DNA of 64,000 nucleotides, taken from contig CM000429.1 in the NCBI GenBank assembly GCA_000165345.1, positions 544,001-608,000 on the forward strand, read 5' to 3'. Shown here in pieces: positions 1,389 to 38,384 of this stretch; the stretch's first letter is position 1, and each line of letters opens with the position of its first letter. The notes beneath the pieces were generated by a model, which worked only from the letters and a program-made list of their open reading frames with translations, was not told the origin of the DNA and ran no database searches. Made by a program: the position numbers and the translations under genes.

Positions 1389-2797
1389 ATGTCGGATATG
1401 ATCTTAAGCTCAGGAATAGGAAGCCAATCTTCTAGCATCATTCTGGATATCGGTACTCAATCTATTAGAGCAGGATATGGAGGTGACGATTTGCCAAGGA
1501 GTGTAGTTCCTACATGTATTGGAATTCCCAATAAGGAGGTTGATTTAATTGATTCGAATAGACTTTGCAATACCATTTTTCCTCTCAAACCATGGGAGAA
1601 GCGAGACTACATTGAAGTTTTACATCCATTACAATATAATATTCAAGAAAAAGCAATTGAATTTAATGAGGAATACTTAACAAAAATTATTCAAGAATTG
1701 TCTTTATCACAAAAATTTACAAATAGCACCTCTTCATTTTTAACTAAGCACAATTACATTTTTGAACCACTGGATGACAGGATGAATGGCCAAACACTTT
1801 TGATCCCTATTCATTCAACATCAAACCCCAATAATTCTATTAAACTTGCAGAAATTGCATTTGAAAAACTTGAAGTTGCATCGCTATTTACATCAAGAAG
1901 GCCAGTACTTTCTTGTTTTGCTTGTGGTAGGACTTCAGGGATTGTAGTTGACATCGGTGCGTCAGTATCAAATGTTTCTTGCGTTCAAGATGGGCACTGT
2001 ATTCAAGGGAGTATTCAGGAGTATCCTGTTGCAGGAGACTTTTTGGATAATGAAATTTATAAAAAAATACACAAGGTAAACATTATTCCTGAATTTGGAA
2101 TATTCAAAAATGAAGATAAAAATGGGGCAAGTGAATATCATGTACCCTTAACAAATGTTGATGAATCTTACTTAACTTGGGGGATAATGCATGTAATTAG
2201 GGAAATTAAACATTCTAGCCTTTTTTTCCCGAATCCTAATTCAAATAATGAGAATGAGTTTCATCTCCCAGATGGTAATGTAATTGACACTACATCTATT
2301 CGTAACAGCATTCCAAATTTACTTTTTAAATCTGGAAATTCCAATCAAGGCTACCCAGGCATTGTACAAATGGTTATAAATTCAATAACTGAAACTTCAA
2401 ATATCAATAAAGAAATTTCAAGCATTACTTCATCTATTATTCTTGCAGGAGGAACAACATTAATTAATGGATTTGATGCCAAGTTGCACCAAGGAATTAT
2501 CGATCAGAGACCTTCAGTAATATTTAATAACTCTGTAAGTTTTCTGAAATCAAATTACAAAATTTATTCAGCATTTTAGACTGGTCCAGCTCCTAGAATT
2601 GTTGCATCTCCGCGCGCATCAGAAAGATTGGCATCTGCATGGATTGGAGCTTCAATTCTTTCTTCTTTGGGAACATTTCCCCAATTTACAGTTTCAAAGA
2701 GGGTAAGTGTGTTTTGTATATGAACTTCTTATTTTAATTGTTTTTGCAGGACTACCAAGAGTTTGGCCCAAATATTATTAATAAAAAATGCCCATAG
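1389..2797 (+). CDS. Actin-related protein (Arp / actin-like), 3 exons
   Basis: Exons are about 1389..2534, 2580..2702 and 2750..2797. The ORF track stops at an in-frame TAG that sits inside a 45-nt GTAAGT...TTTTAG intron. Splicing it out, plus a second 47-nt GTAAGT...TTTTTGCAG intron, restores the canonical actin C-terminus: ERLASAWIGASILSSLGTFPQFTVSKR then DYQEFGPNIINKKCP*. Compare actin [42 protein letters not shown]. Confidence 0.75.
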
Positions 2798-3055: not shown

Positions 3056-3844
3056 ATGTATTCCTTAACTAAAAATAGAGATCCTATACAAATTGAGGGA
3101 TTTTGTGGTCAACTCATTTCTGAGACAGAAAAAAAAAGCTATAATGGCAAAATTGAACATAGCTTTAACCCTTATATGAATAATGGTGGTTCATGCGTAG
3201 CCGTAGCAGGGGATGATTTTGTTGTAATCGCCGCAGATACAAGGCTCAGTAAAATGTATAGAATAGCCTCAAGATCAGTTTCTAAAACTTGTCAGTTAAC
3301 AAATAAGTGTATCTTAGCTTGTAGTGGAATGCTTGCAGATATAAATGCACTTAGAAAGACGTTATTAGTAAGTTTCTAAATATTATTAGATAACATTATA
3401 ATCATTTAATTTCAGGCAAAAGTAAAACTATATGAGTTTGAACATAACAAAACGCCCTCTATTAATGCAATTGCTCAATTACTTTCTTGTATATTGTACT
3501 CGAAAAGATTCTTCCCATACTATTCATTTTGTCTACTTTCAGGGTTAGATGAACAGGGTAAAGGTGTTGTTTATGGCTATGATGCAGTGGGTAGTTTTGA
3601 TCAGCATAAATTTGTGGCACTTGGGTCTGGAGGATCGTTAATAACTTCAATCCTTGATAATCAAATATCGGGAAATAATCAGACCTCATTTGAGTCGATT
3701 GATAAAGTTGGAATCATTAATATTGTTAAAGATTCAATTACGAGTGCCAGTGAGAGAGACGTTCATACAGGTGACTCTGCAGAAGTTATTGTTATTGACT
3801 CTTCCGGAATAAGCGTTTCATCATTAAGATTAAGAGAGGATTAA
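3056..3844 (+). CDS. 20S proteasome non-catalytic beta subunit (beta6 / PSMB1 / Pre7-like), 2 exons
   Basis: Exons are about 3056..3367 and 3416..3844, separated by a 48-nt GTAAGT...TTTCAG intron. The spliced product runs FNPYMNNGGSCVAVAGDDFVVIAADTRLS...ALRKTLL | AKVKLYEFEHNK...RFFPYYSFCLLSGLDEQGKGVVYGYDAVGSF...ERDVHTGD. It aligns along its length to PSMB1, including [20 protein letters not shown]. There is no Thr1 active site. Confidence 0.85.
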
Positions 3845-6091: not shown

Positions 6092-6970
6092 CTATTTATT
6101 GCACGCAGGAAATAGTACATATCCAATATCTTGTTGCACATACGATATTGATCCAAGAAAATACCTCATATTAAAATCTAATTGAACATCCACTACAAAA
6201 CTTCTCACTACCCCGTTTATGCAATTTGAGCCTAATGTCTCGTTCAAAACTTTTTTCGCACCTTCAAAGTCCACATCACCTTTAATTAGCATTAAAAATT
6301 CGTTTTTTCCAGGAGGTAGCCAGGCACCTAATTTCGCTTCTGCTTCGCCATAACGTCCTAATATATGTTCTAATTGACGGAGATCTTTGTTTTCTGTGAC
6401 TAGCGTCACCTTCTTTGCGATTAGTATTTTATCATTATCTGTGGGTAATTTCTTATTTAATGGGAATATGAAGCCATTTGATAGATCTTTATCCAATATA
6501 GAATGCGAAAAAATATTATTGTTGCTTTTGTTAGGAGTACAAACGAATTTTGTTGAAACAGGAACAAAATTTATATTTCTAATTGAGAGCCTACCGCTCA
6601 GCAAACTTTTATTATATACTGGCATCTTTAGAGTCGCAATAAATGTTCCGTCTGCTGAAACGGTTAATGAGTCTGTTTTGATGGGTAATCCGTAGATATT
6701 CCCTATAAAAATAGGAGGGGGTGCCATCTGTCCAATAGTTATTCCTCCTGAAAATAGAATCAGCAAAAAAACCAACAGTATTAATAACAAAAGTAATATA
6801 TTGTATAGACCTATAGTGATCTTTGAATTTTTTTTCTTTTCTTTAAAAGAAATATCCAGAGACAGAATAGACCATGGCTCTTTGATTGCTGCACAAGCCA
6901 CGTATGGAACAGCTTCATTAATGTCGATTTCATGGCTAAATATACATTTGTAAATCTTTTTAAAAAGCAT
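6092..6970 (-). CDS. Hypothetical type-II membrane protein (single TM helix near N-terminus)
   Basis: 292-aa ORF with an ATG start. A hydrophobic stretch ILLLLLILLVFLLILF is followed by a luminal domain of about 200 aa. I recognised no confident homolog. Confidence 0.4.
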   Translation of the reverse strand: MLFKKIYKCIFSHEIDINEAVPYVACAAIKEPWSILSLDISFKEKKKNSKITIGLYNILLLLLILLVFLLILFSGGITIGQMAPPPIFIGNIYGLPIKTDSLTVSADGTFIATLKMPVYNKSLLSGRLSIRNINFVPVSTKFVCTPNKSNNNIFSHSILDKDLSNGFIFPLNKKLPTDNDKILIAKKVTLVTENKDLRQLEHILGRYGEAEAKLGAWLPPGKNEFLMLIKGDVDFEGAKKVLNETLGSNCINGVVRSFVVDVQLDFNMRYFLGSISYVQQDIGYVLFPACNK

Positions 6971-7075: not shown

Positions 7076-8049
7076 CTATAATTCTCTAACTTTAGTTGGA
7101 AACCCGAATCTCTGTCTTAATGCCCTTATTCGTTCCGGCTTAGAATTGATCTTCGATGACTGAAACTGTAAAAATTAAATCAAGCCACTATAGATCAACT
7201 TACTTCTTGGCGAATTAACTTTACTGTCTCGCCCAGGTATCTTTTCACAAGTCCAATTGCCCAATCTTGCACTTCGCTAGTTGTTTGTCTATCATCATCC
7301 TGCCTATGGACGTTTTCTCCCTGGAGCAGTAATCGGTCGGTATTGTCAATTATTCCTAGAATAATTCCGTTATAAATATTAGTTAAATGTATAATCTTTT
7401 TGCCTATATATCTTACCGTAATCTTCGTCTCTATATACGAAGTATTCTTTAACGCAATTATCACCTTTTAATTTCATTTTTCTTTTTGGTTGAGAAGTAA
7501 TTATATTGTTTTTTATTAATTTGTTATTATTTTCGCTTCTCAATCTTCTCCCATAAATTATTGGAGGTAGTATCAATTTTCGTTTTTTTATTCCGATATT
7601 CTTGCTTAAAAATGTAATACTTGAAGAAGTTTTAATAGTTGGAGAGTTTTGAGTTTTGTTCGCAAGATTACTAATTTTATCGCATCCTCTAAATTAAAAT
7701 ATAAAATAATAAATGCAAAGCTTTATACTTACATAATTGTAGGAGTAGGCGTTGAATTGCGCACAATTTCTTCTTCGAATAAATTCTTCGACAAAGTTTC
7801 ATCAAAAATACAAACTTCTTGCTTATTCTCAATATTTCTGTCAACTGTAACTTTCTGAAGTTCCGAATGATTAAATAGCTCTGAGTTACTCAGCTGTCCA
7901 AACTCATTATTTTGCGTGGGAATCAATAGAATTCCTGAATTATTGCATTCATATTGGGATGCATAAAATTTGTCTATCTCCTTTTTTTCGCATGTATATA
8001 TTCCTAAATCTTCTGTCCTCTTTCTTTTTCCATATTTACTCAAGTTCAT
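7076..8049 (-). CDS. Hypothetical 4-exon gene (about 275 aa) joining two ORF-track entries
   Basis: Exons on the minus strand are about 8049..7733, 7688..7417, 7355..7204 and 7159..7076. The introns are 44 nt (GTAAGT), 61 nt (GTAAGA) and 38-44 nt (GTAAGT). ORF 7729..8049 ends exactly at AT|GTAAGT. The frame of ORF 7379..7576 (TTG start) is open back to the first acceptor. The donor GATTACG|GTAAGA links it to the frame of ORF 7195..7464 (GTG start). A final GAA|GTAAGT donor adds a 28-aa basic tail, SSKINSKPERIRALRQRFGFPTKVREL*. Function is unknown. Confidence 0.45.
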
Positions 8050-8647
8050 TTTTATTGAATCAACTAAGTTATCAACTATCTTTATGTTCTAAATTCAATT
8101 GTTAATCAATACAGTCTTAATTATCCGCTTACGTACCTTTCTCCAGTCAAACCCTGTTTCTTTAATTATTTTCTTTATTTCTTCGCTGTAAAGATCACAC
8201 ATTTATTATTGAATTAATATCTATTGCAATATATAGCCTTAACACACTATTTTTTTAAATCCACCTATTAATTAAAAAAACTAATTATGCAATGCATGTT
8301 TATCCACTTGATAATATACCGGTAAACTATCACATGCATACATGCAGGAAAATAAATATTTCAATACGTGTATAATCATTTAACAGCTATCTTTGAAGCC
8401 ATAATGTGATAATTGTTCAAATTCATTCAGTTTTAAGTAATTTTCAAAGAATAATTATATATTTCACAGATTTAAAAGTTGCTTTTTTTTGTCAATTGTG
8501 AACGTGTGTAAAATGTACAGTTTGCTAATAAATAAAGAGGCGTCATGTCTATTCTTGATTTTTTTTTTTTTTTTAATTTATTTAGAATTAAATAAGACAA
8601 GCTATATTTAGTTATACAATAATATTGATGAGATCCAATATAATGAA

Positions 8648-11600
8648 ATGGAAGGTGGGGTAATAAACTTGAAAAAAGAAAGAAGCTCAGTTAGAACATT
8701 CATCAGATTCTGTCCATCTAAAAAAACAATTATCGAAGATTCAAAAGAATGTCAATGGGTATTCAGCACAGGAGATCATGGAAAGTCGATTAGAGCAAGT
8801 AGAAAATCATCTATTTCCAAAACTAGAAGTTGTACTGTCACTGATGAGATATTTAAAGAAGATGCTTGCAATAGCGAAATTTATAGAAAAACTATGTTAC
8901 AGCAGCATGCTGTTGATGTATTAGATGGAATCTCTACGAATATAATAGTTTGCGGCCCTCACAAAACGGGAAAAACCAATTTATTAATTGGTTCTCAAAG
9001 AAGTATTGGGATAGTGCTTCAATCAATATATGATATTTTTGCTGCAATACGATGTTACACAAATGGTATTCATATTAATGAAAAAGGGGTAAATACTGAA
9101 ACAACTGGCAACTTTGATCGACTTTTTGTTGTCAAAGCATCTGTATTAGAAATAGGAGAAGACTCTTCAAACTTTAAATTAGATAATGTTCGTGATTTAA
9201 TAAATCCAGAAAACCCACTACAATTGATTAAAAAATTGGGAGGAGAATTAGGTTATTCTATAAAAGGTGAACATGAACATCTATTTGAGAATGAGGAAAA
9301 ACTAGTGGCATCAATTTTATCTGCTGTAGCAAGAAAAAAAGTTTTAGATGCGATTCGTAGAGAAAGAGTTAATACCAGAAAGAAAAAAAAAACTCCTGAG
9401 CAAATACAAAATACAATATTTGGTGAATTTGGAGAAAGATGGGTTAAAGATGATATGATTGGTAGTTTGTTGATAACTATTTCAGTTGAGTCAGTTGATA
9501 AGTCAGAATTGGAAAATAATATAAGTAAGAATGAAAAAATAGCAAACTCAACCCATGTAAACTATGGTACCTTGCGATTTTTTGAAATTTCATCTTGTAT
9601 TAGCGCAAGCCCAAATTTAAAAGCAGTAATTCCGCTTTTCGGTTTGCTCGATTTAGCATTCGAGATAAGGAAATATTGTTATACAAATGAAAAAAGTAAT
9701 AGAATCAATATTACGAATATTAGTAGTTATATTGCTTCAACCATAATTGATTCAAATTTAACTATAATTGGCACGTTATCTAGGTTTCCTTCAGAGAAAA
9801 AGTGTTGCATTCGCCCTTTAATAGCACCTTACGATAATCAAACAACTGTTCAACCCCATTCAATTTTTGATACATTGCAATTTTTGGAATATATCGGTAA
9901 TAGCATGAAATTTCCCATATATCCTCAAAGAAATTGTTTTAAAAAGCCTTTTGTTCAATCAAAACTAATGGAAGTTTGCAGGAAAAATTTAATGAATGGC
10001 TCCAAGAAAATTCATAGTAAAATGATAATTAAATCAGAAAGAGGAATCTGGCAAAGTGAAAGTAGTGGAAGAGTAACTAGAATTATCCGGCTGCTTACAT
10101 TCATTAATCGTTCAATTGAAGGTTCAGGAATATTGAGAATTTTGATGAGTGGGAATGAAGATGATATTATTCGAATTTACTGCGAAAATATTATTGGATC
10201 TGGTGTAATTGACCTAGATGGATACCAAATTAATAATTCCACTGGAAAATGGTTTCAAATTGATAACTATAAATTACCTGAAAAAGAAAAAGAACAGAGG
10301 AAGAAGTTAGAGTACATGAATCAAATAGAACAGAAATACGGATTGAAAGACAAAAATATTAAAAAGGAAACTTTGCTCATTGATAAAAAGGTCAAATTCG
10401 ACTGTGAAAAAAAAAATGAAAAAGAAATTGAAGATCATATTAAAAAGATGAAAAATCTTGACTTTACAATTGAAAGACCTAAATTTGAAGATAATAACTT
10501 TAAAGAGATTTCAGAAAACAAAGCTCCTAATAAATTTGGAAATAACATTAAATTTGACGAAGTTTTGCTTTCATCAAGTACAAACGAAAGAATTGAAAGT
10601 AGTGAGTCTGATGTAGATATTACTAATATATTCGATTCTACAGCACTTGAGCGTAATAAAGATAAGTTAGATAATGAAGATTTTAATGTAAATCTGTGCG
10701 AACAATTTGATAAGTCAAATAAATCAAAGAAAAAAATATTTATTAGCGAAAACGTAGGCAACAGTAACAATTATTTGAATGTTGACGAATACGTTGGCGA
10801 ATCAAATAATTTTAATGATCAAATAAGTGAAGGAATAGGTCCTGATTCAAACCTATTTGATCCTGTAAAACAATATGAAAAGTTACTAAAAAAAACTATT
10901 TCGCTTAATAAACTACAAAAATCGATTATGGAAAGCCAAAAAAAGGTACTTCAAGATGAATCTTTATATGCAAATAGTAATGCTAATAGCATGAATGATT
11001 ATATTTCTAAGCTAGAAGGGAAGAAACCTTCTAACCGTCTTTCATTAGTTAATAAAAAAGCTATTGAGGCTAGCCAAAAAGCTATTGAAGCTAGTAAAAA
11101 AGCTATTGAAGCTAGTAAACATTTATATGAGAGGGAAGTAAACCACTCGAGAGGAAAAATACATGATCACATACCTGCTTCGAAAAATTTTCCACAAATC
11201 GATATTTATGCACCATCCTATGACTCGGATATTGAATATGACAAATTTCACAACCCAAAAGATATCGTATTTGATTTCAAGTCATCAAACGAAAGCGATG
11301 AAGATCATAAGGAAAGAGTTCTTGAAAGTCATTATAAAAGCAACTTCCCTCATAATAATGAAAGTTGCCCTTGCTGTGACCAACTATCAAAAAGGAGTAA
11401 GTGCCGTTGCCATTATGCGGACGCATCCGTAAATTTCAATGGAATAAGCGAAACATCTGTGAATACTGATAAATCTCTGTTCTTATATTATGAACCAGGA
11501 GCAGGTAAAAATGAACTAATTAAACCAAATGGCAGAAGTTGGGATATTTTTGTTAATGTTCCCAAGAAGTTTGCGAACGTAACAACTCTTGGATTCGAAA

Positions 11601-12544
11601 ATGGGAAAATATTTCAAAGTGATAAACAAGAGTTTGAGAATCCTTTTGAGAACGATGAAAATATTGAAGTCCCAGATTCGAAAATAATAAGTTCATATGA
11701 AGCTTTTTCCGACAAAGATATTTCAAATATTACATCAGAGTTTGATCAAAATTCTTTTCAAACTAAAATAAATCTTGATTCGTTACAAAGAGAAGCTATA
11801 GAAAACAATAAATTAAGTAAAAAAAAGGTGAATTATGAGAGTAACTCAAACGTGGAAAATAAAAATCAAACAATTAAAAATGATATTTTGGACGACCTTA
11901 TGGAGATTAAAAGACAAACTTCAAATCTTAAACATCAGTTCATATTGGATCCCAAATTGTTTAGGCCTCTCTATGAAAGTAACAACCCAGATAAATGTGA
12001 TCTATCAATAAAGAAAATTGATATTGATCAAGAACTAAAAAATGTTGAGAAATATTCCTGTTTTGAGCATAGCTCAAATATAGATAGACTATCTTCGTCC
12101 GCCAATAGCAATGATTTAAACTTTAATTCAAACTTCAATTATTCAGATTATCCCAATTTCAATTTAGAAAATTCATCTCAGGAAAATTCTTTTGAAGGCG
12201 TAACTCCATACAACTCCAAGATTAATCAGCCTTATATTAATAGTTCTTCAAATAACTACTCTGATGACAAATACTTGGAAGAAATAGAAATGGACCTTAA
12301 CGAACAATTGAATAATTTCTCTAAGTATACGAATACAAATTTGTCAAATACACGCCCAAGCGAAAGTAATACAGACAGAAGTATTGAAATTCTCAAACAC
12401 CAGGAAATTCCAATAGAAAACGTTATTCGAGAAGTTGGATGCTGCCATATTAAGTATATTATGCCATTTCCAAAAGATCTAAAACCAAAGATATTTAAAG
12501 GAACTAGCAACTTTCAGTTTCCCTATTTAAGGTCATTATATTAA
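8648..12544 (+). CDS. Divergent kinesin-like protein with degenerate motor motifs and a long low-complexity tail
   Basis: 1298-aa ORF. The N-terminus fits the kinesin motor core: FD-x-F...SEIYRKT...VDVLDGISTNIIVCGPHKTGKTNLLIGS (Walker A GxxxxGKT) and VVKASVLEIGEDSSNFKLDNVRDLINP (compare SYLEIYNE..RDLL). Switch I and II (SSRSH, DLAGSE) are degenerate, reading GTLRFFEISSCISAS. The rest is low-complexity coiled coil. Confidence 0.5.
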   Translation: MEGGVINLKKERSSVRTFIRFCPSKKTIIEDSKECQWVFSTGDHGKSIRASRKSSISKTRSCTVTDEIFKEDACNSEIYRKTMLQQHAVDVLDGISTNIIVCGPHKTGKTNLLIGSQRSIGIVLQSIYDIFAAIRCYTNGIHINEKGVNTETTGNFDRLFVVKASVLEIGEDSSNFKLDNVRDLINPENPLQLIKKLGGELGYSIKGEHEHLFENEEKLVASILSAVARKKVLDAIRRERVNTRKKKKTPEQIQNTIFGEFGERWVKDDMIGSLLITISVESVDKSELENNISKNEKIANSTHVNYGTLRFFEISSCISASPNLKAVIPLFGLLDLAFEIRKYCYTNEKSNRINITNISSYIASTIIDSNLTIIGTLSRFPSEKKCCIRPLIAPYDNQTTVQPHSIFDTLQFLEYIGNSMKFPIYPQRNCFKKPFVQSKLMEVCRKNLMNGSKKIHSKMIIKSERGIWQSESSGRVTRIIRLLTFINRSIEGSGILRILMSGNEDDIIRIYCENIIGSGVIDLDGYQINNSTGKWFQIDNYKLPEKEKEQRKKLEYMNQIEQKYGLKDKNIKKETLLIDKKVKFDCEKKNEKEIEDHIKKMKNLDFTIERPKFEDNNFKEISENKAPNKFGNNIKFDEVLLSSSTNERIESSESDVDITNIFDSTALERNKDKLDNEDFNVNLCEQFDKSNKSKKKIFISENVGNSNNYLNVDEYVGESNNFNDQISEGIGPDSNLFDPVKQYEKLLKKTISLNKLQKSIMESQKKVLQDESLYANSNANSMNDYISKLEGKKPSNRLSLVNKKAIEASQKAIEASKKAIEASKHLYEREVNHSRGKIHDHIPASKNFPQIDIYAPSYDSDIEYDKFHNPKDIVFDFKSSNESDEDHKERVLESHYKSNFPHNNESCPCCDQLSKRSKCRCHYADASVNFNGISETSVNTDKSLFLYYEPGAGKNELIKPNGRSWDIFVNVPKKFANVTTLGFENGKIFQSDKQEFENPFENDENIEVPDSKIISSYEAFSDKDISNITSEFDQNSFQTKINLDSLQREAIENNKLSKKKVNYESNSNVENKNQTIKNDILDDLMEIKRQTSNLKHQFILDPKLFRPLYESNNPDKCDLSIKKIDIDQELKNVEKYSCFEHSSNIDRLSSSANSNDLNFNSNFNYSDYPNFNLENSSQENSFEGVTPYNSKINQPYINSSSNNYSDDKYLEEIEMDLNEQLNNFSKYTNTNLSNTRPSESNTDRSIEILKHQEIPIENVIREVGCCHIKYIMPFPKDLKPKIFKGTSNFQFPYLRSLY
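11057..11119 (+). repeat. 3 x 21-nt in-frame tandem repeat (KAIEAS[Q/K])
   Basis: The unit aaagctattga[g/a]gctag[c/t][c/a]aa repeats three times head to tail inside the kinesin-like CDS. Confidence 0.7.
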
Positions 12545-26076: not shown

Positions 26077-28338
26077 ATGTCAAATCAACAATATTCTCTT
26101 AATAATAATGTATTTCAAAACTTTCAAAGACAAATTTCTTCTCAAAATCAAAGTTCTTCTGAGCAAATATCATCTCAATCTTCAACTTACACTAATCAAA
26201 TGGTTAACAATAATATTAGTTTAATGAAAACGTTTGTGCCTCATACTCAAAATGGTGTTGAAAATGATGGTAGTATTACACAAGTTATTAAATACTTAAG
26301 AAAAAATGGGTATATTGAGACAATTGATACTTTGCTATTTGAAATGAATGAAAATGATAGAAAATTAAAAATTAATTCTCTTGAGAACGAGATGACTGAT
26401 TCTGAAGTTGAAAATTTAATTAATTTTACTAGGAAAATAGATAATATTGACACTCAAGTGATTTCGGATAAATATTCCAAGTTCAGAAATTGGATTCTGA
26501 ATTCGCTATCTTCTGTTCGAGAAGAACTCATTTCTGTTTGTTTTATTGTTTTTGTTAATATCTGCTATATCTTATACAAGAACTCATCTATTGAGAGATA
26601 TAGAAACTTCTTAAATAAGTTTTCAGATGATTTTTCGCTATCTAAATATAGAGAAGCTGTCACATTATTAAGAAATTCAAGTGATTTGGGTTATTTAAAA
26701 AATGCAGAATTGTTGAAACCATTTTTTGGATCGAAATTTCATATCATCCTAAACCGAACATCTATTTCATTATTGAATAACTTCTTATTGTCCCATTGTG
26801 ATACTCTAATTTTAGGAATTATGCAAGAGAAATTGGTTATTCATGCTTTTGATCACAAGACAAATAATAATGACGTTACGCTTACCAGCAGAAATGAAGA
26901 ATTGGGTTGTTTGAAGGAAGTTGGGAATTTTCAGATTGGCGAGCTTTATTCTGAAGACTCCTTATTCATTGAATTTAACTCAAAAAATAACCAAAAAAAC
27001 AATACTTATGGCGACATATCTGTAGTTGCAAAAGATGCATCAAAAGTACTTGAAACTGATATGTCAGGTAAAGGCTATTCCCAAAGTAATTCTATTATCA
27101 ACTGGGGGCTTCATCCTGAGAATTACAGTGGAATAATTTCCAAAGAAAATGAAATGAAAAAATCCAAATTTAATCGATTTGATGACGAAATTACAGAAGA
27201 AATTAAAAACGTTGAAATAGAATTCAATCCCATTAACGATTCAAACAACTCTTTTACGTTTAAATATAAAAAACATTTATATGAAGAAGTATCAAATCGA
27301 AAATTTGTTGATTCTACCCATCTTCCCTCTATAATTTGTAGCAGTTTGGAATGCTCAAATTGTAATGAAATAATTGACATGAATATTTCACATAACCATG
27401 AAGTTGGCGCATATTGTACCGATGATGGCTGTATACAAGTTTTTGATATAGAAAATCCGGAATCAAAGATTGAACCTATATGGATCCATAGAAATAGAGT
27501 ACAGTGTGTAAGGTTTCACCCATGGAATCCGGAGTTTTTATTATCTGCTGGAATCGACAGTATTATTAAACTTTCAATTATTACCAAAGATCAAGAACCC
27601 ACTTTATATCAACTAGTTACATTCTCTGGACATTCAACAAATTCTTGTATTTGGGATCTCAGCTGGGATGATCACGGGATTTCCTTTATTAGTGGCTCAA
27701 GCGACCAAAGTGCAAGATTATGGTGTACATCAAGGACTTATCCAATTCGTATATTTACAGGTCACTTTGGAGATGTTAGATCGGTGTCAATACATCCAAA
27801 CTCTTCTATTACTGTAACTGGTGGCAGCGATAATCAAATTATTATTTGGGATGTACGTACAGGAAAGAAGGAAGGCACAATTCATAACAGAAAAGTTATG
27901 TCAGGAATTATTAATCAGGTCAAATTCAGCCATAATGGATATTTGTTAGCTTCCTCTTCAATTAATAATCAAGCTACTCGCTTTTATTCTCAAAACCAGC
28001 TTATAGTACCAATTTGGGATATTCGTAAATTGTGCAATTCTAATAGAGCTACTGAATTTTATCAGCTTTGTCAATTCCCAAATGATACAATAGATTCAAA
28101 AAAACAAACGTTTGTTAAATCGCTTGATTTTTCATTTGGGAGCCGTGTCATTGCATCTGCAACTAATAGTGGTATAGTTTCTATCTGGGATACAAACGTA
28201 GAGACAAGTTTTAATCAAACGGACAATCCAAACTTAGTTAACAATTCTGCGCAGATTTATAAATTAAAGAACTCAAGTATAAAAAGCCTCAAATTCCTAT
28301 CTAGAAATTTACTATCAATATCGTCTGTAAAGTTATAG
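26077..28338 (+). CDS. TFIID subunit TAF5-like (LisH + NTD2 + WD40)
   Basis: 753 aa. It has a LisH-like SITQVIKYLRKNGYIETIDTLL. The NTD2-like block GSKFHIILNRTSISLLNNFLLSHCDTLILGIMQEKLVIHAFD matches TAF5 TSKFVLRISRDSYQLLKRHLQE...IVQEHLYIDIFD. C-terminal WD40 repeats follow. Confidence 0.65.
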   Translation: MSNQQYSLNNNVFQNFQRQISSQNQSSSEQISSQSSTYTNQMVNNNISLMKTFVPHTQNGVENDGSITQVIKYLRKNGYIETIDTLLFEMNENDRKLKINSLENEMTDSEVENLINFTRKIDNIDTQVISDKYSKFRNWILNSLSSVREELISVCFIVFVNICYILYKNSSIERYRNFLNKFSDDFSLSKYREAVTLLRNSSDLGYLKNAELLKPFFGSKFHIILNRTSISLLNNFLLSHCDTLILGIMQEKLVIHAFDHKTNNNDVTLTSRNEELGCLKEVGNFQIGELYSEDSLFIEFNSKNNQKNNTYGDISVVAKDASKVLETDMSGKGYSQSNSIINWGLHPENYSGIISKENEMKKSKFNRFDDEITEEIKNVEIEFNPINDSNNSFTFKYKKHLYEEVSNRKFVDSTHLPSIICSSLECSNCNEIIDMNISHNHEVGAYCTDDGCIQVFDIENPESKIEPIWIHRNRVQCVRFHPWNPEFLLSAGIDSIIKLSIITKDQEPTLYQLVTFSGHSTNSCIWDLSWDDHGISFISGSSDQSARLWCTSRTYPIRIFTGHFGDVRSVSIHPNSSITVTGGSDNQIIIWDVRTGKKEGTIHNRKVMSGIINQVKFSHNGYLLASSSINNQATRFYSQNQLIVPIWDIRKLCNSNRATEFYQLCQFPNDTIDSKKQTFVKSLDFSFGSRVIASATNSGIVSIWDTNVETSFNQTDNPNLVNNSAQIYKLKNSSIKSLKFLSRNLLSISSVKL

Positions 28339-28515
28339 AATCTTCACATAAATATTTATTTTCCTTTTTCCATTTTTATTTTCTCCGCATGAATTGATTT
28401 TTGACCTAATCAGACATTCTGCCGCAATAGAAATATATTATTGCAAAGAATGAAAATAAAATGACTATTATGATTATGCAAATCTTTTCAACGACTAAAA
28501 GTTAATTTTTTAATC

Positions 28516-31500
28516 ATGAAAATTTCTCTTTCCGGTTATAAAGTAATTAATTTGTTTGATCTTGAGCTTGATCGCTTGACAATAATCTCAAAAAATAAAT
28601 CGTTTCGAATATCGATTAAAAAGTTAAAAATATCTGTTTTCAATTGGTTTACATTTATCATTTTTGTTATTTATATTCTTTTAATAGGCTGCAGACATAT
28701 TGATTTATTTTTCAATTTTTTTTCCAAATTTACTGAGAAGAAAATTGCAAGTTTAAAACTAGATCAAGTAGAAATATATCATTTAAAGAAAGATGGATCT
28801 AGCGTACCAAATGTCAAAAGGTCAAATCTTATTAATTTTGTTTCTTCATATTTTGATTTTGAGCTTTTCAGTGTTTGTCTATTATCAGAATATAAACTAT
28901 TAGGAAAAACATTTTTATTTGGAACTAATATTGGATCTATTTACAAGAAAAATTATTCATTCAGGAAAACTAACATTTTTATACGAAGGATTTCTGTCAG
29001 ATTTAATGAATATTTTGATGATATTTCTACTTACGATATAATTGATTTAATTGGATTGAAAGCATATTTTTTCTCAATTTTAAAAGATCAAGAAACGATC
29101 CTAGCTTTTCCGGGTCTTTTAAACATTGATATGGTAAATTCAAATTATGAATCATTTATCACAATAATTGAGGATAATATTGAAAAGGTATACTCAGGTA
29201 TTTATTTATCAATCCCATTATTAAATTATGTCTTTTTCAACATTAAGTCGTTATTCATAAATAAAAATGGAAGTAGTTTAATTCATAACGTGTTTAATTG
29301 GAAGCTCAAGATTTTGATTAATTTTAAAAGAATATTTTTGGAGACATATGAAAGTAATAAATTATTTCTAACAATTAGTTCTATTGTATTCACTTTAGAA
29401 TATAATATGCACAACTTCTCGCTAGTAATTAAACTTTTGAATTGCTACTTATTAATCAACTTGGAAAACTCTATTCAAATTCTGGAATCTATAATTTATT
29501 TTGATGTTAAAGATAAAATAATAAGAGCGAATATGAAATATTTAAGATTATACTCAAAAGCGATACACTCTAATAGTCTCGACAACTTCATTGATGTAAT
29601 AGAGATTCCAGAAATGAATATATTTTCAACTAAGATCGAGCATTGTCCAGAAAACCTTTCGATTGTATTTTTTACTTGTATTGAATTAAATAGTGAGCTG
29701 CTGATCATTAAATTGACGGGCCTGGATGAAATCTTTTGCCAAAATGTTGAATTTAAAAATGAGATCTCAGATTTGCTTGAATTCTCAAATCAATATTTAT
29801 CAGTATCAGATAACGAAGAGAGTGTTTATACAATTTTCTATACTCTAGAGAGAATTGAAAATAAAAACTTGAATATTCAGATAAACTTTAATTTTAATTC
29901 AAATATTCAACTAATCTATAATATGAATAATATAGAACTAAACATTGAAAGAAGTCAAGCTAATTTAACATTCAACTCAAATGAGAAGTTTCTGAAGATT
30001 ACAGATTTTGAATTAGCCCAGTATAATTATTTATATGAAAATGTGTTTTCAATGAAAATAAAAACCATTTTGCTTAACTTTAAAACTAGTAACAAAAGTA
30101 TATTTTTGCAAGAAATAGTTTTTGAAAAAGAAAGTACAATATGCATTTTCTTAAAAGATATTTCAATATTTACAATAGAAAATTCATGCAATTTGAGTGC
30201 AAAAAATATAAAAATTTATTTATATTTAAATACTTCATTAAATTATAACTCAATATTTACTGTATTTGAAATTGAATACGTCAACTTTATTTTCCAAAAA
30301 ACGATTTATTGCTGGAAATCTATAGAAATATACAAGATAATTATTAAACAATGTTTTTCAAAAGATGAGCCATTATTTTACGAGCTAATAAGAATTGATG
30401 AAGATCCAGTTAAAATTCGTAATGAAAACTTGAGTAACAAATATCTAACAATTTGCATTCCAAAACTGTTATTAGCGGCAAGTAATTATCAGATAATGAA
30501 GCTGAGCAATTTGTTTTCAAATTTTAAGCAAAATTCACTCGTCAAAACTAGGATTAGTCAATTAAATTTGATTATAACATTAAATAATGCAAGTATACAT
30601 TATTACTTTCACACTGAAAATAAATGCACAACATTATTAGCTTATTTTGAGAATGGTAAAATCTTTTTATCAATTAATGATAAGTATGAAATTGACATCA
30701 GCTCAAAATTTAATCGAGTTGAAATAATGGCTGGTGAAGTTCATATTGGTAATGATAAAATAATTAAATTCCCACATTACAGTGAAACTTTGTATTCAAA
30801 ACTTCATAATAGAGACATATATTGCGATATTGTTTATTATGAAATTACGAAAAAGATCAAGACTAATCTACTAATTGATGAAGGCAAAATACAGAATTCT
30901 GGTTTTAAAGACAAAATTTTTCCAATTTTTATTAGTAGTATCGACATTTCTCATAACTTTCATATAAAGTTACGCAAAAATACAAAAATAAGAGTTCATT
31001 ACAACTTTAGTAAAGATTCTTTTCTTGTAAACTCAAATTTGGTCAATAATACGATGCTTATTTTAATAGATGTACATGATTATGTGAATTCCAATGAATT
31101 ATTTTATTCTATCAGCTCTGAAGATAATAAATACAAGCTTTCAACATTTTTGGAAAAGATAAATGATATTTGTTTGTTTGAAATTAGACTTCAATGCCTA
31201 AATATGTTATTAATAAAAGCCCAGCTCGAATCGAAATATTTAATTCTTAATTTGAATGGCATTTTGTTTTCTAACCTTAATTCTTTTGAATTATGTATTG
31301 AAAAGTTTAAGATATTTGTCAAATATCCCAGCAACAATTTCAGCGGAGAATATATAAATTTAATAATAAATAACAATCTAATTAAGGCAAATCTCAAGAT
31401 CCTAGATTCCAAAATGTTTTTTTTTGCTGAAAAACTTATTTTTAATTTAAAATTTCTAATTAGAGAATTCGAATGCAAAATTGAAGCAGTTCAACTCAAA

Positions 31501-34500
31501 GTTTCAAAAAATTTGATAGATGTGGTAGTAGGTATTGCGTTTGACTCGGAATTTAGCCATAAAGAAAATGAATTGTATTCAATTAAGTATTATCGGGGAA
31601 CAAACTCATTTCATTATTTATTCGATTTGAGGCAGTCTCAAGCATTTGTAAATAATCTAATGCTTTTATCAAATGAAGATGTATCAGTTGTTCCTTATTT
31701 TCATATTAACTGTTTAAGTAACGCAAAATTTAATATAAAAAATATTGAAGTACCACTATTTTATAACTCAGAATATTTGCTCGATTTAAATAACTCATTT
31801 TTTGACAAAATATATTCAAGTTATAATGAGCCTTTTTATTCTCGTTATTTCAATGATAACATTTATTCCATCAATTGTAGAATAGATTTAAATGTTTTTA
31901 ACTTGGATAATATCAGCAGCGAAATTCCATACTCCAAATTATGTGATTTTTCGGCAAGCAATGCCACTGTTGGATTAAAAATTTGCTTTTCCTCAAAAGT
32001 GTTCAAAGATTTGATTTTATTTTTTGGCACTAAAGTTCCAACTTGTTCTGATATATTTGAGAGAGCTATCAAAATAAGGAAAAATCAAAAAATTGAGATT
32101 CCATTTGATTTTATTGCTGATTTCCCAAACATGATGGTTTTCAAAGATACAAATTCCATAAATATAATGGAATTTGATTCGGTATTCTCTCAAAATAACT
32201 CAGTAAGTATTATTGACATAATAAAAAATTTGATAGAAAACCCTAAAGCATTTTATTTAGATTACAATTTAATTAATTCCAGTCTTTGTATTGGATTTGA
32301 GTGTATTAATTATCGTGGATCTTGCATTAATATAAATATTTTCAATATTATTAGCGTAATTAATATTTCAGGAGAGTCTCTGAGTTTTAGTTTTTGTAAT
32401 CCATATAACAACAAGCTAGAATACGAATGTATTGTGGAAAATTTGAATCAAGAATTTATTGACAACGTTGACACTAAAATAGATTCAGTTCTGTTAATTA
32501 ATGATCCAATGAAAATAACTCATCGATTTTATATCGAATTTAATAGAGTATCTCGAGCTGAAAATCATTGTTCAATTAAAGAAAATATCATCGAATTAAA
32601 TGAAACAAGATCTCAAACAAATAGTAAGAATTACAGATTATCACTGATTAAAGACAAAATTAGCTTTATTATTATTATTTGGTGCCCATTAATAATAATA
32701 AATTACTCAAACCTTGATTGCATTTTAAAGATTATTAATACAGAAAACCAAGAATACTATTTTCTGGAAGGAAAAATATCTAAAAGCAATTCATGGAATT
32801 CAATAAAAAAAAGAAATTTAAGTAATAAAAGCATTTTTTCACTTTCCAACATTGATCAAAAAGATTTTATTGAGTTAGAAATACAGTCGGGATGTTATGT
32901 TAGTACATTCTCACCATCAAGACAAAGAGAAAACGATATTTTAATAGAAGTAGAAGATTATAAGTATTTATTAAAAAGTAATTTTATTTTAAGTATACTA
33001 GAAAGACATTCAATTAAAATAAAGGTTGTAAAGCTAATGCCGATATGGTCCATTAGAAACAAATCTAACTTCAACATTAGAATTACATATGGAAAGCATG
33101 TTAATATCCCTATTAAATCAAACTCTGGATATCTAGATAATACTTATTTAGTTCGTAATACACATTTTAATTATGACATACAAGAACAAATAAAGATAGT
33201 TTTTGATGAATTTGTTAATTTCTTTTTAATAAACCTAACAAAACATGAACCTTATGAAAGGCTAATTAATTTATATCGTAATGATAAAAATCCAAATAAG
33301 GAATGGAAATTAATTAAAATATCTTTTTACCCAATACAAAACGGCTCTGTTACAAAATTTAATACTGGAATTTATATAGAACTTAATGATTTTAACGAGA
33401 ACGAATCATCTAATTATTTTGTTTTCGAAAATAAGACAAGTTTTACGTATTTGCTGACACAAGCAAATGGCCTACTAGACTTTAATAGCATAGACATAAA
33501 TATTCATAGAAAAGAAAACTTAACACAAAAAATTTGGGAAAACACTTTAATTGAGAAGCTTTCAAAAGTTTCTTTATACGATAATAAAATATTTAATAGT
33601 AAATTTTCAATTTGTTTAGTTCCAGAACAGATTAATAATCAGCTCTTTTTTTGGGCAAAAGAGAGTATTCAAGATAATAGTCCAATTACTGTTAGTTTTT
33701 ATGATGAAACAAATAACTTAAAGGTTACATTAGAACAAATTCCTGCATATTTGTTCATTAATGGAGGAACAAAGCTAATTAGATTCAGTAATTATGATTC
33801 TAATGGAAAAAATAATATATACCAATTTTTATTAAGTATATTTAAGTTTGGGAATGAAGTTACACATATAGTTTTCCATACATCTTCATTTATTCAAACA
33901 CATTATACAATTATTCCTTCATTTTTTATTCAAAGACAAATTGAATACCAATTGGTAGCTAGAGAAGAAATTGCAAACAATTATTTTTTAAATATAAGAA
34001 AATTTGAGTTAATTTTATTTAATGACATTGATTCAGATAAAGTATTAAAAGTAAAATGGACTTCAACTCCAACCAATTCGCCTAAAGAATCTCAGAAAAA
34101 TTTGTCTCTTTTTCCATCACCAAGAAAAAATGAATTGATCGACTTTTCCCCAGTTTTTCATATCCTTTTTGAACGTCTTTCAGTAAATATTCAGGAAGGA
34201 GCAAAGAAACTTGAGTTATTCGACTCAGCATATAAGATTTATTCAAATTTAAATAAAGTTTGCTGTAAAATTTCAAATTATGAGTCCACAATATTCGAGG
34301 TAAATAATCATAGAAGTGAAATAAATCAAAACCAAGTTACAATAATTTTTGATTGCTTTAAATTTAAAAAACGAGTGAATAATAAACCAAAATTTTCTGA
34401 GAAATACCAAATAAAGGATTTAATGATTCAAATACCATTTATGGATTTTAATCTAAACTTGAATATTTACTTCCGTAATTTTTTACATAATTTTGTTACT

Positions 34501-38311: not shown

Positions 38312-38384
38312 TAGGAAGAACGGGAATCGAACCCGTGACCTCTTGCGTGTGAGGCAAGCGTCATAACCCCTAGACCATCCTCCT
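38312..38384 (-). tRNA. tRNA-Val (anticodon CAC)
   Basis: Minus-strand 73-nt cloverleaf. The acceptor is AGGAGGA/TCTTCCT with one G-U pair. The D-arm is GTC..AGGGGTTAT..GAC. The anticodon stem is CTTGC/GCAAG with loop CTCACAC. The variable loop is AGGTC. The T-arm is ACGGG-TTCGATT-CCCGT. The discriminator A is followed by a TTTT Pol III terminator. Confidence 0.75.

What the first reader, a model, noticed from the sequence alone, without database searches (positions are those of the whole stretch)
7076..8049. Two or three separate ORF calls are one 4-exon gene
ORF 7729..8049 terminates exactly at ATG|TAAGT, where the stop codon is part of a GTAAGT donor. The reading frame of ORF 7379..7576 is open upstream to a TAG|A acceptor 44 nt away in compatible phase. 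Its 3' part ends GATTACG|GTAAGA. A TTCTAG|GA acceptor 61 nt downstream continues in the frame of ORF 7195..7464. That ORF in turn ends GAA|GTAAGT, followed 38-44 nt later by a 28-codon basic tail. Four consecutive phase-compatible junctions with consensus donors are unlikely by chance. The 275-aa product has no homolog I can name, so it is a candidate novel gene.
Basis: seen in the sequence. Interest (0 to 1): 0.55.

Follow-up and report, generated by a model that had tools for sequence, protein, structure and literature searches.

The report
Known five-exon Cryptosporidium orphan gene
The separate small ORFs really are pieces of one spliced gene, but it has five exons rather than four, it is already correctly annotated in newer Cryptosporidium parvum genomes (cgd1_2520), and it encodes a genus-specific, mostly disordered protein of unknown function.

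Summary
The window is Cryptosporidium parvum chromosome 1. The model is incomplete. A 66-nt exon (8202-8137, donor AAG|GTACGT) and a 48-nt intron lie upstream. The gene therefore has 5 exons and 4 introns and encodes 309 aa. That product is 100% identical over its full length to annotated C. parvum proteins (CPATCC_0036810, CPHLJ_1g2520). The authors of the IOWA-ATCC annotation state that its introns are fully RNA-seq supported. The 2004 Iowa II reference annotated only the 106-aa ORF 7729-8049 as cgd1_2520. Seven other Cryptosporidium species keep the four introns at the same positions and phases, with lengths that differ by non-multiples of three. dN/dS is about 0.1. The protein is an orphan. 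Exhaustive HMMER searches, Pfam and PDB find nothing outside the genus. AlphaFold2 predicts disorder with a few helices. It is basic, has NLS-like clusters, and carries a 30-residue invariant C-terminal helix. Published qRT-PCR shows it silent at 2-6 h and rising to 72 h. Resemblances to the INCENP IN-box and to Sororin were tested and not supported. Verdict: a real but already-known gene, a correction of an old annotation, of low interest.

The parts
8137..8202 (-). Exon 1 (66 nt, 22 codons, MCDLYSEEIKKIIKETGFDWRK). The start ATG is at 8202-8200, directly preceded by two in-frame TAA codons. The donor is AAG|GTACGT.
   Evidence: adding this exon gives 100% identity and 100% coverage to the annotated 309-aa protein; it is 66 nt in all 8 species; dN/dS for residues 1-40 is 0.08-0.12.
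8089..8136 (-). Intron 1 (48 nt, GTACGT...TTTAG, phase 0).
   Evidence: the homologous intron is 45-60 nt in seven other species. Retaining it introduces in-frame stops in 7 of 8 species.
7733..8088 (-). Exon 2 (356 nt). It encodes an acidic, poorly conserved region with the conserved islands NSGILLxP and xIFDE.
7689..7732 (-). Intron 2 (44 nt, GTAAGT...TTTAG, phase 2). The TAA 'stop' of ORF 7729-8049 lies inside the donor. A second in-frame AG lies 18 nt further on (exon start 7670). It corresponds to the acceptor used in C. meleagridis, where the upstream acceptor is mutated.
7417..7688 (-). Exon 3 (272 nt). It encodes the basic region with the invariant TSSSxT[FY]LSK motif and the NLS-like clusters KKRKL and PKRKxKL.
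7356..7416 (-). Intron 3 (61 nt, GTAAGA...TTCTAG, phase 1, splitting the Gly232 codon).
   Evidence: One public C. canis model (P0006) retains this intron as a 17-aa insert.
7204..7355 (-). Exon 4 (152 nt). It encodes the most conserved block, H[RK]QDDDRQTTSE[VI]Q[DE]WAIGL..Y..ET, which is predicted to be helical over residues 257-282.
   Evidence: Exon 4 is 152 nt in 7 of my 8 guided models. C. xiaoi came out at 161 nt, from a donor I judge misplaced by 9 nt on inspection of the sequence and the public protein P0009.
7160..7203 (-). Intron 4 (44 nt, GTAAGT...TTTCAG, phase 0). There are three tandem in-frame AGs, giving exon starts at 7165, 7159 or 7150 and products of 311, 309 or 306 aa. Only TTTCAG|TC (7159) is conserved in related species.
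   Evidence: Some assemblies annotate the 306-aa variant. C. meleagridis lacks the first AG.
7076..7159 (-). Exon 5 (84 nt, 27 codons plus TAG at 7078-7076). It encodes the basic tail with invariant R.R.LRQRFGF..K.
   Evidence: Several public models miss this exon and read through the intron instead ('QEVS*').
8203..8647 (.). A 445-nt AT-rich (23% GC) divergent intergenic or promoter region, shared with the kinesin-like gene cgd1_2530 (start 8648, + strand). Three TGCATG/CATGCA cores sit at 8293, 8333 and 8341. These are half-sites of the ApiAP2 GCATGC motif. No full GCATGC, E2F or G-box motif is present.
   Evidence: about 0.2 cores expected from window frequency. The motif identity comes from PMC3734150. 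A regulatory role is inferred, not tested.

Best explanation
**Structure (shown).** The locus 7076-8202 on the minus strand is the C. parvum chromosome-1 gene cgd1_2520. It is an ordinary spliceosomal protein-coding gene of five exons and four short GT-AG introns (48, 44, 61 and 44 nt). Its mRNA encodes a 309-aa, 36-kDa, basic (pI 9.3) protein.

**Protein features (shown).**
- The protein is conserved and under purifying selection across the genus.
- It has no detectable relative outside the genus.
- It has no signal peptide or membrane segment.
- It is predicted to be largely disordered. The exceptions are an N-terminal helical pair (residues 4-40) and two C-terminal helices (257-282 and 289-299).

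**Function (inferred).**
- It is probably a nuclear protein, because it carries three basic clusters, two of which are invariant and NLS-like.
- It probably acts as a non-enzymatic adaptor or regulator.
- Its genus-invariant short motifs would dock it onto conserved partner proteins. These motifs are TSSSxTFLSK, EYxVYRDEDxG, HxQDDDRQTTSExQxWAIGL..Y..ET and RQRFGF.
- Published qRT-PCR shows the transcript absent in the non-dividing early stages (2-6 h). It appears when nuclear division begins (12 h) and keeps rising to 48-72 h, when cultures are dominated by gamonts and gametes.
- My best guess is therefore a role in nuclear or chromosome events of replicating stages, and especially of sexual stages.
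- The partner and the activity are unknown.
For: **Gene model**
- Junction geometry is confirmed.
- The 5-exon product matches P0001 exactly over its full length. P0001 covers QOY43374.1/CPATCC_0036810, WRK30646.1 and KAL5370494.1/CPHLJ_1g2520.
- The IOWA-ATCC re-annotation paper says its introns are 100% RNA-seq supported (PMC8744675).

**Comparative evidence**
- Four introns sit at identical positions and phases in C. meleagridis, ubiquitum, canis, felis, xiaoi, ryanae and serpentis.
- Their lengths differ by non-multiples of 3, and most would introduce in-frame stops if retained.
- Between C. parvum and C. ubiquitum, exons are 77-86% identical and introns 64-68%.
- dN/dS is 0.09-0.14 overall and 0.05-0.10 in the C-terminal half.
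- Synteny is conserved: kinesin-like gene, this gene, 290-aa gene, SRP68, proteasome.

**Chance control**
- 312 codons when spliced, against a maximum of 103 in 300 shuffles.

**Locus identity**
- Published primers for cgd1_2510 and cgd1_2530 map to the flanking ORFs.

**Protein nature**
- No Pfam family.
- No PDB relative at E<=10.
- A profile search of 1.84 billion representatives returned only Cryptosporidium hits.
- A C-terminal-half profile at E<=10 also returned only Cryptosporidium hits.
- AlphaFold2 gave mean pLDDT 38.8, with helices at 4-16, 21-40, 257-282 and 289-299.
- Composition: pI 9.3, GRAVY -0.75, basic clusters KRKR43, KKRK175 and KRK209, and no hydrophobic segment.

**Expression**
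- Mauzy et al. 2012, supplementary data: zero at 2 h and 6 h, about 1e-5 at 12-24 h, rising to 0.6-2e-4 at 48-72 h.
- Cultures sexualise after 36 h, and more than 80% of stages are gamonts or gametes by 72 h (PMC6877471).
Against: - I could not inspect spliced reads directly. RNA support is taken from the annotation paper's general statement, not from this locus.
- The exact acceptor of the last intron is ambiguous in C. parvum. Assemblies annotate 309 or 306 aa, and 311 aa is also open.
- Nuclear localisation, disorder and partner binding are inferences from sequence and a low-confidence model. Low pLDDT with only five aligned sequences may under-predict structure.
- The qRT-PCR primers for cgd1_2520 are not in the held primer file. 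They were designed on the old 106-aa model.
- The gene is not mentioned in the held supplementary tables of two sex-stage studies. A sexual-stage role is therefore only suggested by timing.
Confidence: 0.9

Rival explanations
1. One reading: a four-exon gene starting at ATG 8049 and giving a 274-aa product, with the upstream 66-nt ORF segment being 5' UTR or unrelated.
For: The ATG at 8049 exists and the downstream chain is open. Some public models start there or later, including C. hominis 249 aa, C. ubiquitum 252 aa and C. canis 263 aa. An internal transcription start producing a Met36 isoform cannot be excluded.
Against: - Exon 1 and intron 1 are conserved in position, length (66 nt) and phase in all eight species. 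This includes the species whose public models omit exon 1.
- Its residues (TGFxWxK, SIK) are conserved out to C. serpentis, andersoni and ryanae.
- dN/dS for residues 1-40 is 0.08-0.12.
- The sequence between acceptor 8088 and ATG 8049 is open and in frame.
- The evidence-based annotation uses ATG 8202.
Confidence: 0.05
2. The ORFs are independent small genes, or only the 106-aa ORF 7729-8049 is a gene as in the 2004 Iowa II annotation. On this reading the splice-like motifs are coincidental.
For: The reference annotation XP_628078.1/Q5CSI9 and C. hominis TU502 list only the 106-aa ORF. GTAAGT is not enriched in the window.
Against: - The strongest conservation lies in the parts outside that ORF, in exons 3-5.
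- Conservation stops at the donor and acceptor sites.
- Intron lengths vary by non-multiples of three, yet the joined frame stays open in eight species.
- No shuffle yields a comparable chain.
Confidence: 0.01
3. The protein is an extremely divergent Aurora-kinase scaffold of the INCENP kind. On this reading the C-terminal DDD...WAxG...F region is an IN-box, the N-terminal helices are a localisation module, and the protein possibly works with the adjacent divergent kinesin cgd1_2530.
For: - From memory, later checked: human INCENP has 'DDSTDDE...PTWARG' and a Phe 36 residues after the Trp (sequence confirmed). cgd1_2520 has 'QDDDRQTTSEVQDWAIG' and a Phe 37 residues after the Trp.
- The overall architecture matches: N-terminal helix, disordered middle, short C-terminal motif.
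- The neighbour has a kinesin motor domain.
- Apicomplexan chromosomal passenger complexes (CPCs) lack Survivin and Borealin, and their INCENPs are very divergent (PMC12946202).
Against: - Pfam INCENP_ARK-bind does not hit any orthologue even at E<=10. It scores the human control at 5e-17.
- hhalign of the family profile against the human IN-box gives 0.18% probability over 10 columns.
- The family profile finds none of the INCENP chains present in the PDB set.
- Apicomplexan INCENPs, including one from C. muris, were already identified and carry a conserved CxC motif that is absent here.
- The kinesin's expression falls at 48-72 h while this gene's rises.
Confidence: 0.03
4. The protein is a divergent Sororin-like cohesin regulator. 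On this reading the C-terminal 'E.xxWAxx[LM]xxx[FY]' helix is a Sororin domain and 'RFGF' is a Pds5-binding FGF motif.
For: A pattern resemblance recalled from memory. Human Sororin ends '...TELDEWAAAMNAEFEAAEQFDLLVE' and carries an FGF motif. hhalign aligns exactly that stretch. The protein is disordered, basic and nuclear-looking, and is expressed when nuclei divide.
Against: - hhalign probability is 0.27% over 10 columns.
- Pfam Sororin_C and Sororin_middle do not hit although they recognise the human control.
- The motif order is reversed: FGF comes after the helix.
- No KEN box is present.
- Whether Cryptosporidium has Pds5 or Wapl was not examined.
- No literature links Sororin to Cryptosporidium.
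Confidence: 0.02

Closest known systems
C. parvum 'uncharacterized protein' CPATCC_0036810 / CPHLJ_1g2520 (QOY43374.1, WRK30646.1, KAL5370494.1; UniRef A0A7S7RHU0), locus cgd1_2520
   Same: It is identical: 309 aa, 100% identity and 100% coverage to the five-exon translation of this window.
   Different: Nothing differs. This is the same gene. Sister assemblies (CPCDC_1g2520, CHM_1g2520) choose an acceptor 9 nt further on, giving 306 aa.
cgd1_2520 as annotated in the 2004 C. parvum Iowa II reference (XP_628078.1 / EAK88369.1 / Q5CSI9, 106 aa)
   Same: It is the same locus.
   Different: The old model is a single-exon fragment. It lacks exon 1 and the first 39 nt of exon 2. It also lacks exons 3-5, which hold the most conserved parts of the protein.
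Orthologues in other Cryptosporidium species (meleagridis, ubiquitum, canis, felis, tyzzeri, hominis, serpentis, andersoni, ryanae, xiaoi)
   Same: They share 43-90% identity, the same synteny, the same four intron positions and phases, and the same invariant motifs.
   Different: Many public models are defective. Exon 1 is missing in ubiquitum, canis and hominis. Intron 3 is retained in one canis model. The last intron is read through in meleagridis, ubiquitum and hominis. The C-terminus is wrong in felis.
INCENP IN-box (Pfam PF03941) and Sororin C-terminal region (PF25220)
   Same: Both are short helical docking motifs near the C-terminus of otherwise disordered nuclear cell-division regulators. 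Both have an acidic run followed by W-A. cgd1_2520 has a similar 10-residue string.
   Different: There is no statistical similarity (hhalign 0.2-0.3%, no Pfam hit). The family-specific features are absent or out of order: the TSS or CxC motif for INCENP, and the terminal F..F.L and a preceding FGF for Sororin.

Membership tests
cgd1_2520 orthologue group (Cryptosporidium-specific uncharacterized protein) | Full-length sequence identity or similarity to annotated members | tested here: met
   100% identity and 100% coverage to P0001. 43-90% identity to 8 further species.
cgd1_2520 orthologue group (Cryptosporidium-specific uncharacterized protein) | Conserved genomic position (between the kinesin-like gene and the cgd1_2510 / SRP68 / proteasome block) | tested here: met
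   The gene order is the same in seven species' loci. Flanking-gene primers from PMC3305300 map at 6630-6651 and 11369-11390.
Spliceosomal (U2-type GT-AG) intron-containing gene | GT...AG boundaries that restore one open frame | tested here: met
   There are four introns with donors GTACGT, GTAAGT, GTAAGA and GTAAGT and acceptors TAG, TAG, TAG and CAG. The joined CDS is 930 nt and open.
Spliceosomal (U2-type GT-AG) intron-containing gene | Intron position and phase conserved among species, while intron length and sequence drift freely | tested here: met
   positions and phases are identical in 8 species. Lengths are 44-67 nt and differ by non-multiples of 3. Introns are less conserved than exons.
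Spliceosomal (U2-type GT-AG) intron-containing gene | Spliced transcripts observed | not testable with these tools
   No read data are available here. Support is indirect: the identical model comes from an annotation whose introns are stated to be 100% RNA-seq supported (PMC8744675).
INCENP (chromosomal passenger complex scaffold) | IN-box / INCENP_ARK-bind domain (PF03941) detectable by profile | tested here: not met
   No Pfam hit at E<=10 for three orthologues' C-terminal halves or for the full-length protein. The positive control scored 5e-17. hhalign probability is 0.18%. The family profile finds no INCENP chain in the PDB.
INCENP (chromosomal passenger complex scaffold) | Apicomplexan-type extended IN-box with a conserved CxC motif (PMC12946202) | tested here: not met
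   No CxC occurs in the C-terminal half of any orthologue (alignment). The feature is described.
INCENP (chromosomal passenger complex scaffold) | Binds and activates an Aurora kinase | not testable with these tools
   This needs co-folding with CpARK1 or a pull-down.
Sororin | Sororin_C (PF25220) or Sororin_middle (PF09666) detectable by profile | tested here: not met
   No hit. The human control scored 1.2e-9 and 4.7e-18. hhalign probability is 0.27%.
Sororin | FGF motif that binds Pds5, located N-terminal to the Sororin domain | tested here: inconclusive
   An invariant 'RQRFGF' exists, but it lies C-terminal to the helix. A three-residue pattern is not diagnostic, and binding was not tested.

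The most novel reading that the evidence does not exclude
cgd1_2520 could be a lineage-specific regulator of nuclear division or meiosis. On this reading its genus-invariant acidic-W-A helix and RFGF tail dock onto a conserved mitotic or meiotic machine, such as an Aurora kinase, cohesin/Pds5, or histones. It would be a functional analogue of IN-box or Sororin-type docking motifs that has diverged beyond recognition or arisen independently. It would fill one of the 'missing' regulator slots in apicomplexan cell division, acting mainly in gamonts. My data do not exclude this, but nothing beyond a 10-residue resemblance and expression timing supports it.
Probability: 0.07. Interest if true: 0.55.

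Novelty: already known. Interest (0 to 1): 0.15.

Why it matters
It matters little beyond housekeeping. The case shows that raw-sequence reading can recover a multi-intron gene in a genome where introns are scarce and short. It also shows that the widely used 2004 Iowa II/RefSeq model of cgd1_2520, and several models in other Cryptosporidium species, are truncated or chimeric. Anyone using those proteomes would see fragments instead of one conserved 300-aa protein. That affects orthology tables, expression primers and proteomics databases. The protein is one of many genus-restricted, strongly constrained, late-expressed unknowns. It would become interesting only if experiments tie its invariant C-terminal motif to a conserved partner.

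Tried and rejected
**Searches for relatives (all negative outside the genus)**
- Pfam on the full protein and on five sub-segments at E<=10 gave only noise: DUF6942, NinG and DUF6172, all below cut-offs.
- A profile search of PDB sequences at E<=10 gave no hits.
- An exhaustive HMMER profile search of 1.84 billion representatives gave only Cryptosporidium hits.
- A second search used a profile of the conserved C-terminal half, built from corrected models, at E<=10. It also gave only Cryptosporidium hits.

**Structure**
- AlphaFold2 with a 5-sequence alignment gave pLDDT 38.8. That is too low for a meaningful fold search, so none was run.

**IN-box and Sororin leads**
- Both were tested by hhalign and by Pfam with positive controls. 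Both were rejected as unsupported.

**Literature**
- Full-text search for 'cgd1_2520' found nothing. 'Cryptosporidium' plus 'sororin' also found nothing.
- The Nature 2024 single-cell atlas is not held.
- The held supplements of Tandel 2019 and Tandel 2023 do not mention the gene.
- The polycistron preprint has no held supplements.
- The ARK1/INCENP paper's supplements list only data sources.

**Other checks**
- GTAAGT enrichment as evidence was rejected: 26 observed against 22 expected.
- Co-regulation with the divergently transcribed kinesin was rejected, because the late time-course profiles differ.
- Other short motifs came to mind: ABBA-like 'VCIFDE', RxL, S-T-P, a PP1 RVxF motif and a separase pseudo-substrate. 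I did not pursue them. Such 4-6-residue patterns cannot be tested with these tools and are not uniformly conserved in the genus.
- My guided splice models for the last intron of C. ryanae and C. xiaoi were inferior to the public models, so I did not rely on them.
Full report
**What the window is.** The sequence is about 30% GC with long ORFs. The spliced product of the locus matches Cryptosporidium parvum proteins exactly. Published qPCR primers for cgd1_2510 and cgd1_2530 map to the two flanking ORFs, at 6630-6651 (-) and 11369-11390 (+). The locus is therefore cgd1_2520 on chromosome 1.

**Checking the observation.**
- ...ATTAT|GTAAGT at 7733/7732. The TAA 'stop' of ORF 7729-8049 lies inside the donor.
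- A 44-nt intron ending TTTAG|A, with the exon resuming at 7688.
- GATTACG|GTAAGA at 7417/7416.
- A 61-nt intron ending TTCTAG|GA, with the exon resuming at 7355.
- CAAGAA|GTAAGT at 7204/7203.
- In-frame acceptors at 7165 and 7159, then a basic tail ending at TAG 7078-7076.

Joined, these give an open 825-nt CDS. That is three junctions, not the 'four' the text mentions.

GTAAGT alone is not enriched in the window (26 found, 22.3 expected). The chain as a whole is far beyond chance. A splice-aware longest-ORF search gives 312 codons, against 107 unspliced. The maximum over 300 dinucleotide-preserving shuffles was 103 codons. The only other spliced chains found in real window chunks use a single intron or are artefacts of chunk edges.

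Upstream of its span, ORF 8095-8202 starts with ATG 8202, directly preceded by two in-frame stops. It ends AAG|GTACGT at 8137/8136. The five-exon CDS is 930 nt and encodes 309 aa.

**It is already annotated.** The 309-aa product is 100% identical over 100% of its length to cluster P0001. That cluster covers QOY43374.1 'CPATCC_0036810', WRK30646.1 and KAL5370494.1 'CPHLJ_1g2520'. C. tyzzeri also has a 309-aa member. [quoted passage not shown]

The 2004 Iowa II reference (XP_628078.1 / EAK88369.1 / Q5CSI9) and C. hominis TU502 annotate only the 106-aa ORF 7729-8049. Metagenome and SRA-derived gene calls hold the individual exons as separate small 'proteins' (P0014-P0018).

**Comparative proof of the exon-intron structure.** I fetched the orthologous loci of seven species. 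Synteny is conserved: large kinesin-like gene, this gene, a 290-aa gene, SRP68, a proteasome subunit. Guided spliced models show the following.
- All seven species have four introns at homologous positions.
- The phases are identical: 0 after W-x-K, 2 after P-x-I, 1 inside the Gly after DED[YL], and 0 after [KRH]-[QEK]-E.
- Exon 1 is 66 nt in all eight species.
- Exon 4 is 152 nt in seven of my eight models. C. xiaoi came out at 161 nt, from a donor I judge misplaced by 9 nt.
- Intron lengths range from 44 to 67 nt and differ by non-multiples of three.
- Retaining an intron introduces stops in nearly every case.
- Between C. parvum and C. ubiquitum, exons are 77-86% identical and introns 64-68%.

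dN/dS is 0.14 against meleagridis, 0.11 against ubiquitum and 0.09 against canis. It is 0.05-0.10 in the C-terminal half and 0.08-0.12 for residues 1-40, so exon 1 is coding.

Exon 1 exists upstream of the annotated starts in C. ubiquitum and C. canis. Other public models retain intron 3 (P0006) or read through the last intron ('QEVS*'; P0002, P0003, P0010).

Two local details are worth recording.
- The last intron of C. parvum has three tandem in-frame AGs, giving 311, 309 or 306 aa. Only TTTCAG|TC (7159) is conserved, although some assemblies annotate the 306-aa form.
- C. meleagridis has lost the intron-2 acceptor. It uses an in-frame AG 18 nt downstream, which C. parvum also has, at 7670.

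**What the protein is.** All of the following searches were negative outside the genus.
- Pfam gives nothing above noise.
- The PDB sequence set gives no hit at E<=10.
- An exhaustive HMMER profile search of 1.84 billion representative proteins returns seven hits, all Cryptosporidium.
- A profile of the conserved C-terminal half at E<=10 likewise returns only Cryptosporidium hits.

AlphaFold2 gives mean pLDDT 38.8. It predicts helices at 4-16, 21-40, 257-282 and 289-299 and a weak hairpin at 210-225. The protein is 36 kDa, pI 9.3 and hydrophilic. It has no signal peptide or membrane segment and carries three basic clusters: KRKR43, KKRK175 and KRK209.

Conservation is concentrated in short blocks that are invariant from C. 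parvum to the gastric and bovine lineages.
- TGFxWxK...SIK (N-terminus)
- NSGI..xP
- xIF[DE]
- TSSSxT[FY]LSK..(x)KKR[KR]LI.P
- PKR..KL
- EYxV[YF]RDEDxG..D.TD
- H[RK]QDDDRQTTSE[VI]Q[DE]WAIGL..Y..ET
- R.R.LRQRFGF..K

This is the signature of a disordered adaptor or regulator that works through docking motifs, most probably in the nucleus. That reading is an inference.

**Expression.** In the qRT-PCR time course of Mauzy et al. (PMC3305300, supplementary file 2), cgd1_2520 behaves as follows.
- Undetectable at 2 h and 6 h.
- About 0.4-1.9e-5 at 12 h.
- Lower at 24 h.
- Rising through 36 h to 0.3-1.3e-4 at 48 h and 0.4-2e-4 at 72 h.

HCT-8 cultures sexualise after 36 h, and more than 80% of stages are gamonts or gametes by 72 h (PMC6877471). 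The gene is in expression cluster 14 of PMC3734150, listed as 'hypothetical protein'.

The 445-nt divergent promoter holds three TGCATG/CATGCA cores, against about 0.2 expected. These resemble half-sites of the ApiAP2 GCATGC motif. No full site is present.

The divergently transcribed neighbour cgd1_2530 has a degenerate kinesin motor (PF00225, E=8e-11 on its N-terminal 451 aa). Its transcript peaks at 12 h and 36 h and falls later, so the two genes are not simply co-regulated.

**Leads tested and not supported.** From memory, the acidic-W-A helix resembles two known motifs.
- The INCENP IN-box. The human sequence was verified against the PDB. It has 'WARG' where this protein has 'WAIG', and a Phe 36 residues after the Trp where this protein has one 37 residues after.
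- The Sororin C-terminal region, together with an FGF motif.

hhalign of the family profile against each human sequence aligns only the ten residues SEVQDWAIGL, with probabilities of 0.18% and 0.27%. Pfam recognises INCENP_ARK-bind, Sororin_C and Sororin_middle in the human controls but in none of the Cryptosporidium sequences. A 2026 study had already identified apicomplexan INCENPs, including one from C. muris. Those carry an extended IN-box with a CxC motif (PMC12946202), which is absent here. Both ideas remain unsupported resemblances.

**Verdict.** The model is one exon short, and the gene is not new. It is cgd1_2520, correctly annotated since the IOWA-ATCC re-annotation, and it encodes a Cryptosporidium-restricted, strongly constrained, mostly disordered and probably nuclear protein that is expressed late. 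Its function is unknown. My best guess is a docking or regulatory role in nuclear events of replicating stages, and especially of sexual stages. Interest is low.

Noticed in passing
window 8648-12544 (+), cgd1_2530: This 1298-aa ORF is divergently transcribed from the finding. It gave no Pfam hit when scanned whole. Its N-terminal 451 aa match the Kinesin motor domain over profile positions 12-190 of 327 (E=7.9e-11, 41.9 bits). It appears to be a degenerate or partial kinesin motor with a long low-complexity tail. Its transcript peaks at 12 h and 36 h.
   Followed up: partly
window 3056-3844 (+): Two ORFs (3056-3379 and 3494-3844) join through a GTAAGT...AG intron of about 48 nt (3368-3415) into a chain of about 247 codons. 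It looks like a proteasome beta-type subunit. Synteny in other species shows a PF00227 proteasome gene at this position.
   Followed up: partly
window 1389-2579 (+) and GTAAGT sites at 2535 and 2703: A 396-aa ORF has an actin-related-protein-like sequence. A GTAAGT lies about 45 nt before its stop and another about 125 nt downstream, so its 3' end may also be spliced. This was not examined.
   Followed up: no
window 6092-6970 (-), cgd1_2510: A 292-aa ORF starts only 105 nt downstream of the cgd1_2520 stop, on the same strand. It has no Pfam family and is annotated elsewhere as a hypothetical protein with an N-terminal transmembrane domain. It is conserved in synteny across the genus. The very short same-strand spacing is the kind of case the re-annotation paper flags as prone to read-through or false-fusion transcripts.
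   Followed up: no
window 38312-38384 (-): tRNA-Val (anticodon CAC). It is the only Rfam or ARAGORN hit in the 64-kb window.
   Followed up: yes
L005 1850-1915, L006 1818-1883, L003 5013-5160, L007 2996-3125: Public gene models of the orthologue are defective in several species. C. ubiquitum and C. canis lack exon 1. C. felis has a wrong C-terminus: using the conserved TTTTCAG acceptor restores '...RIRLLRQRFGFSTKVR'. C. meleagridis and C. ubiquitum read through the last intron.
   Followed up: yes
window 28000-34000: GC content drops to about 25% here, against about 30-40% elsewhere in the window. It rises to about 40% at 52-56 kb. This was not examined.
   Followed up: no
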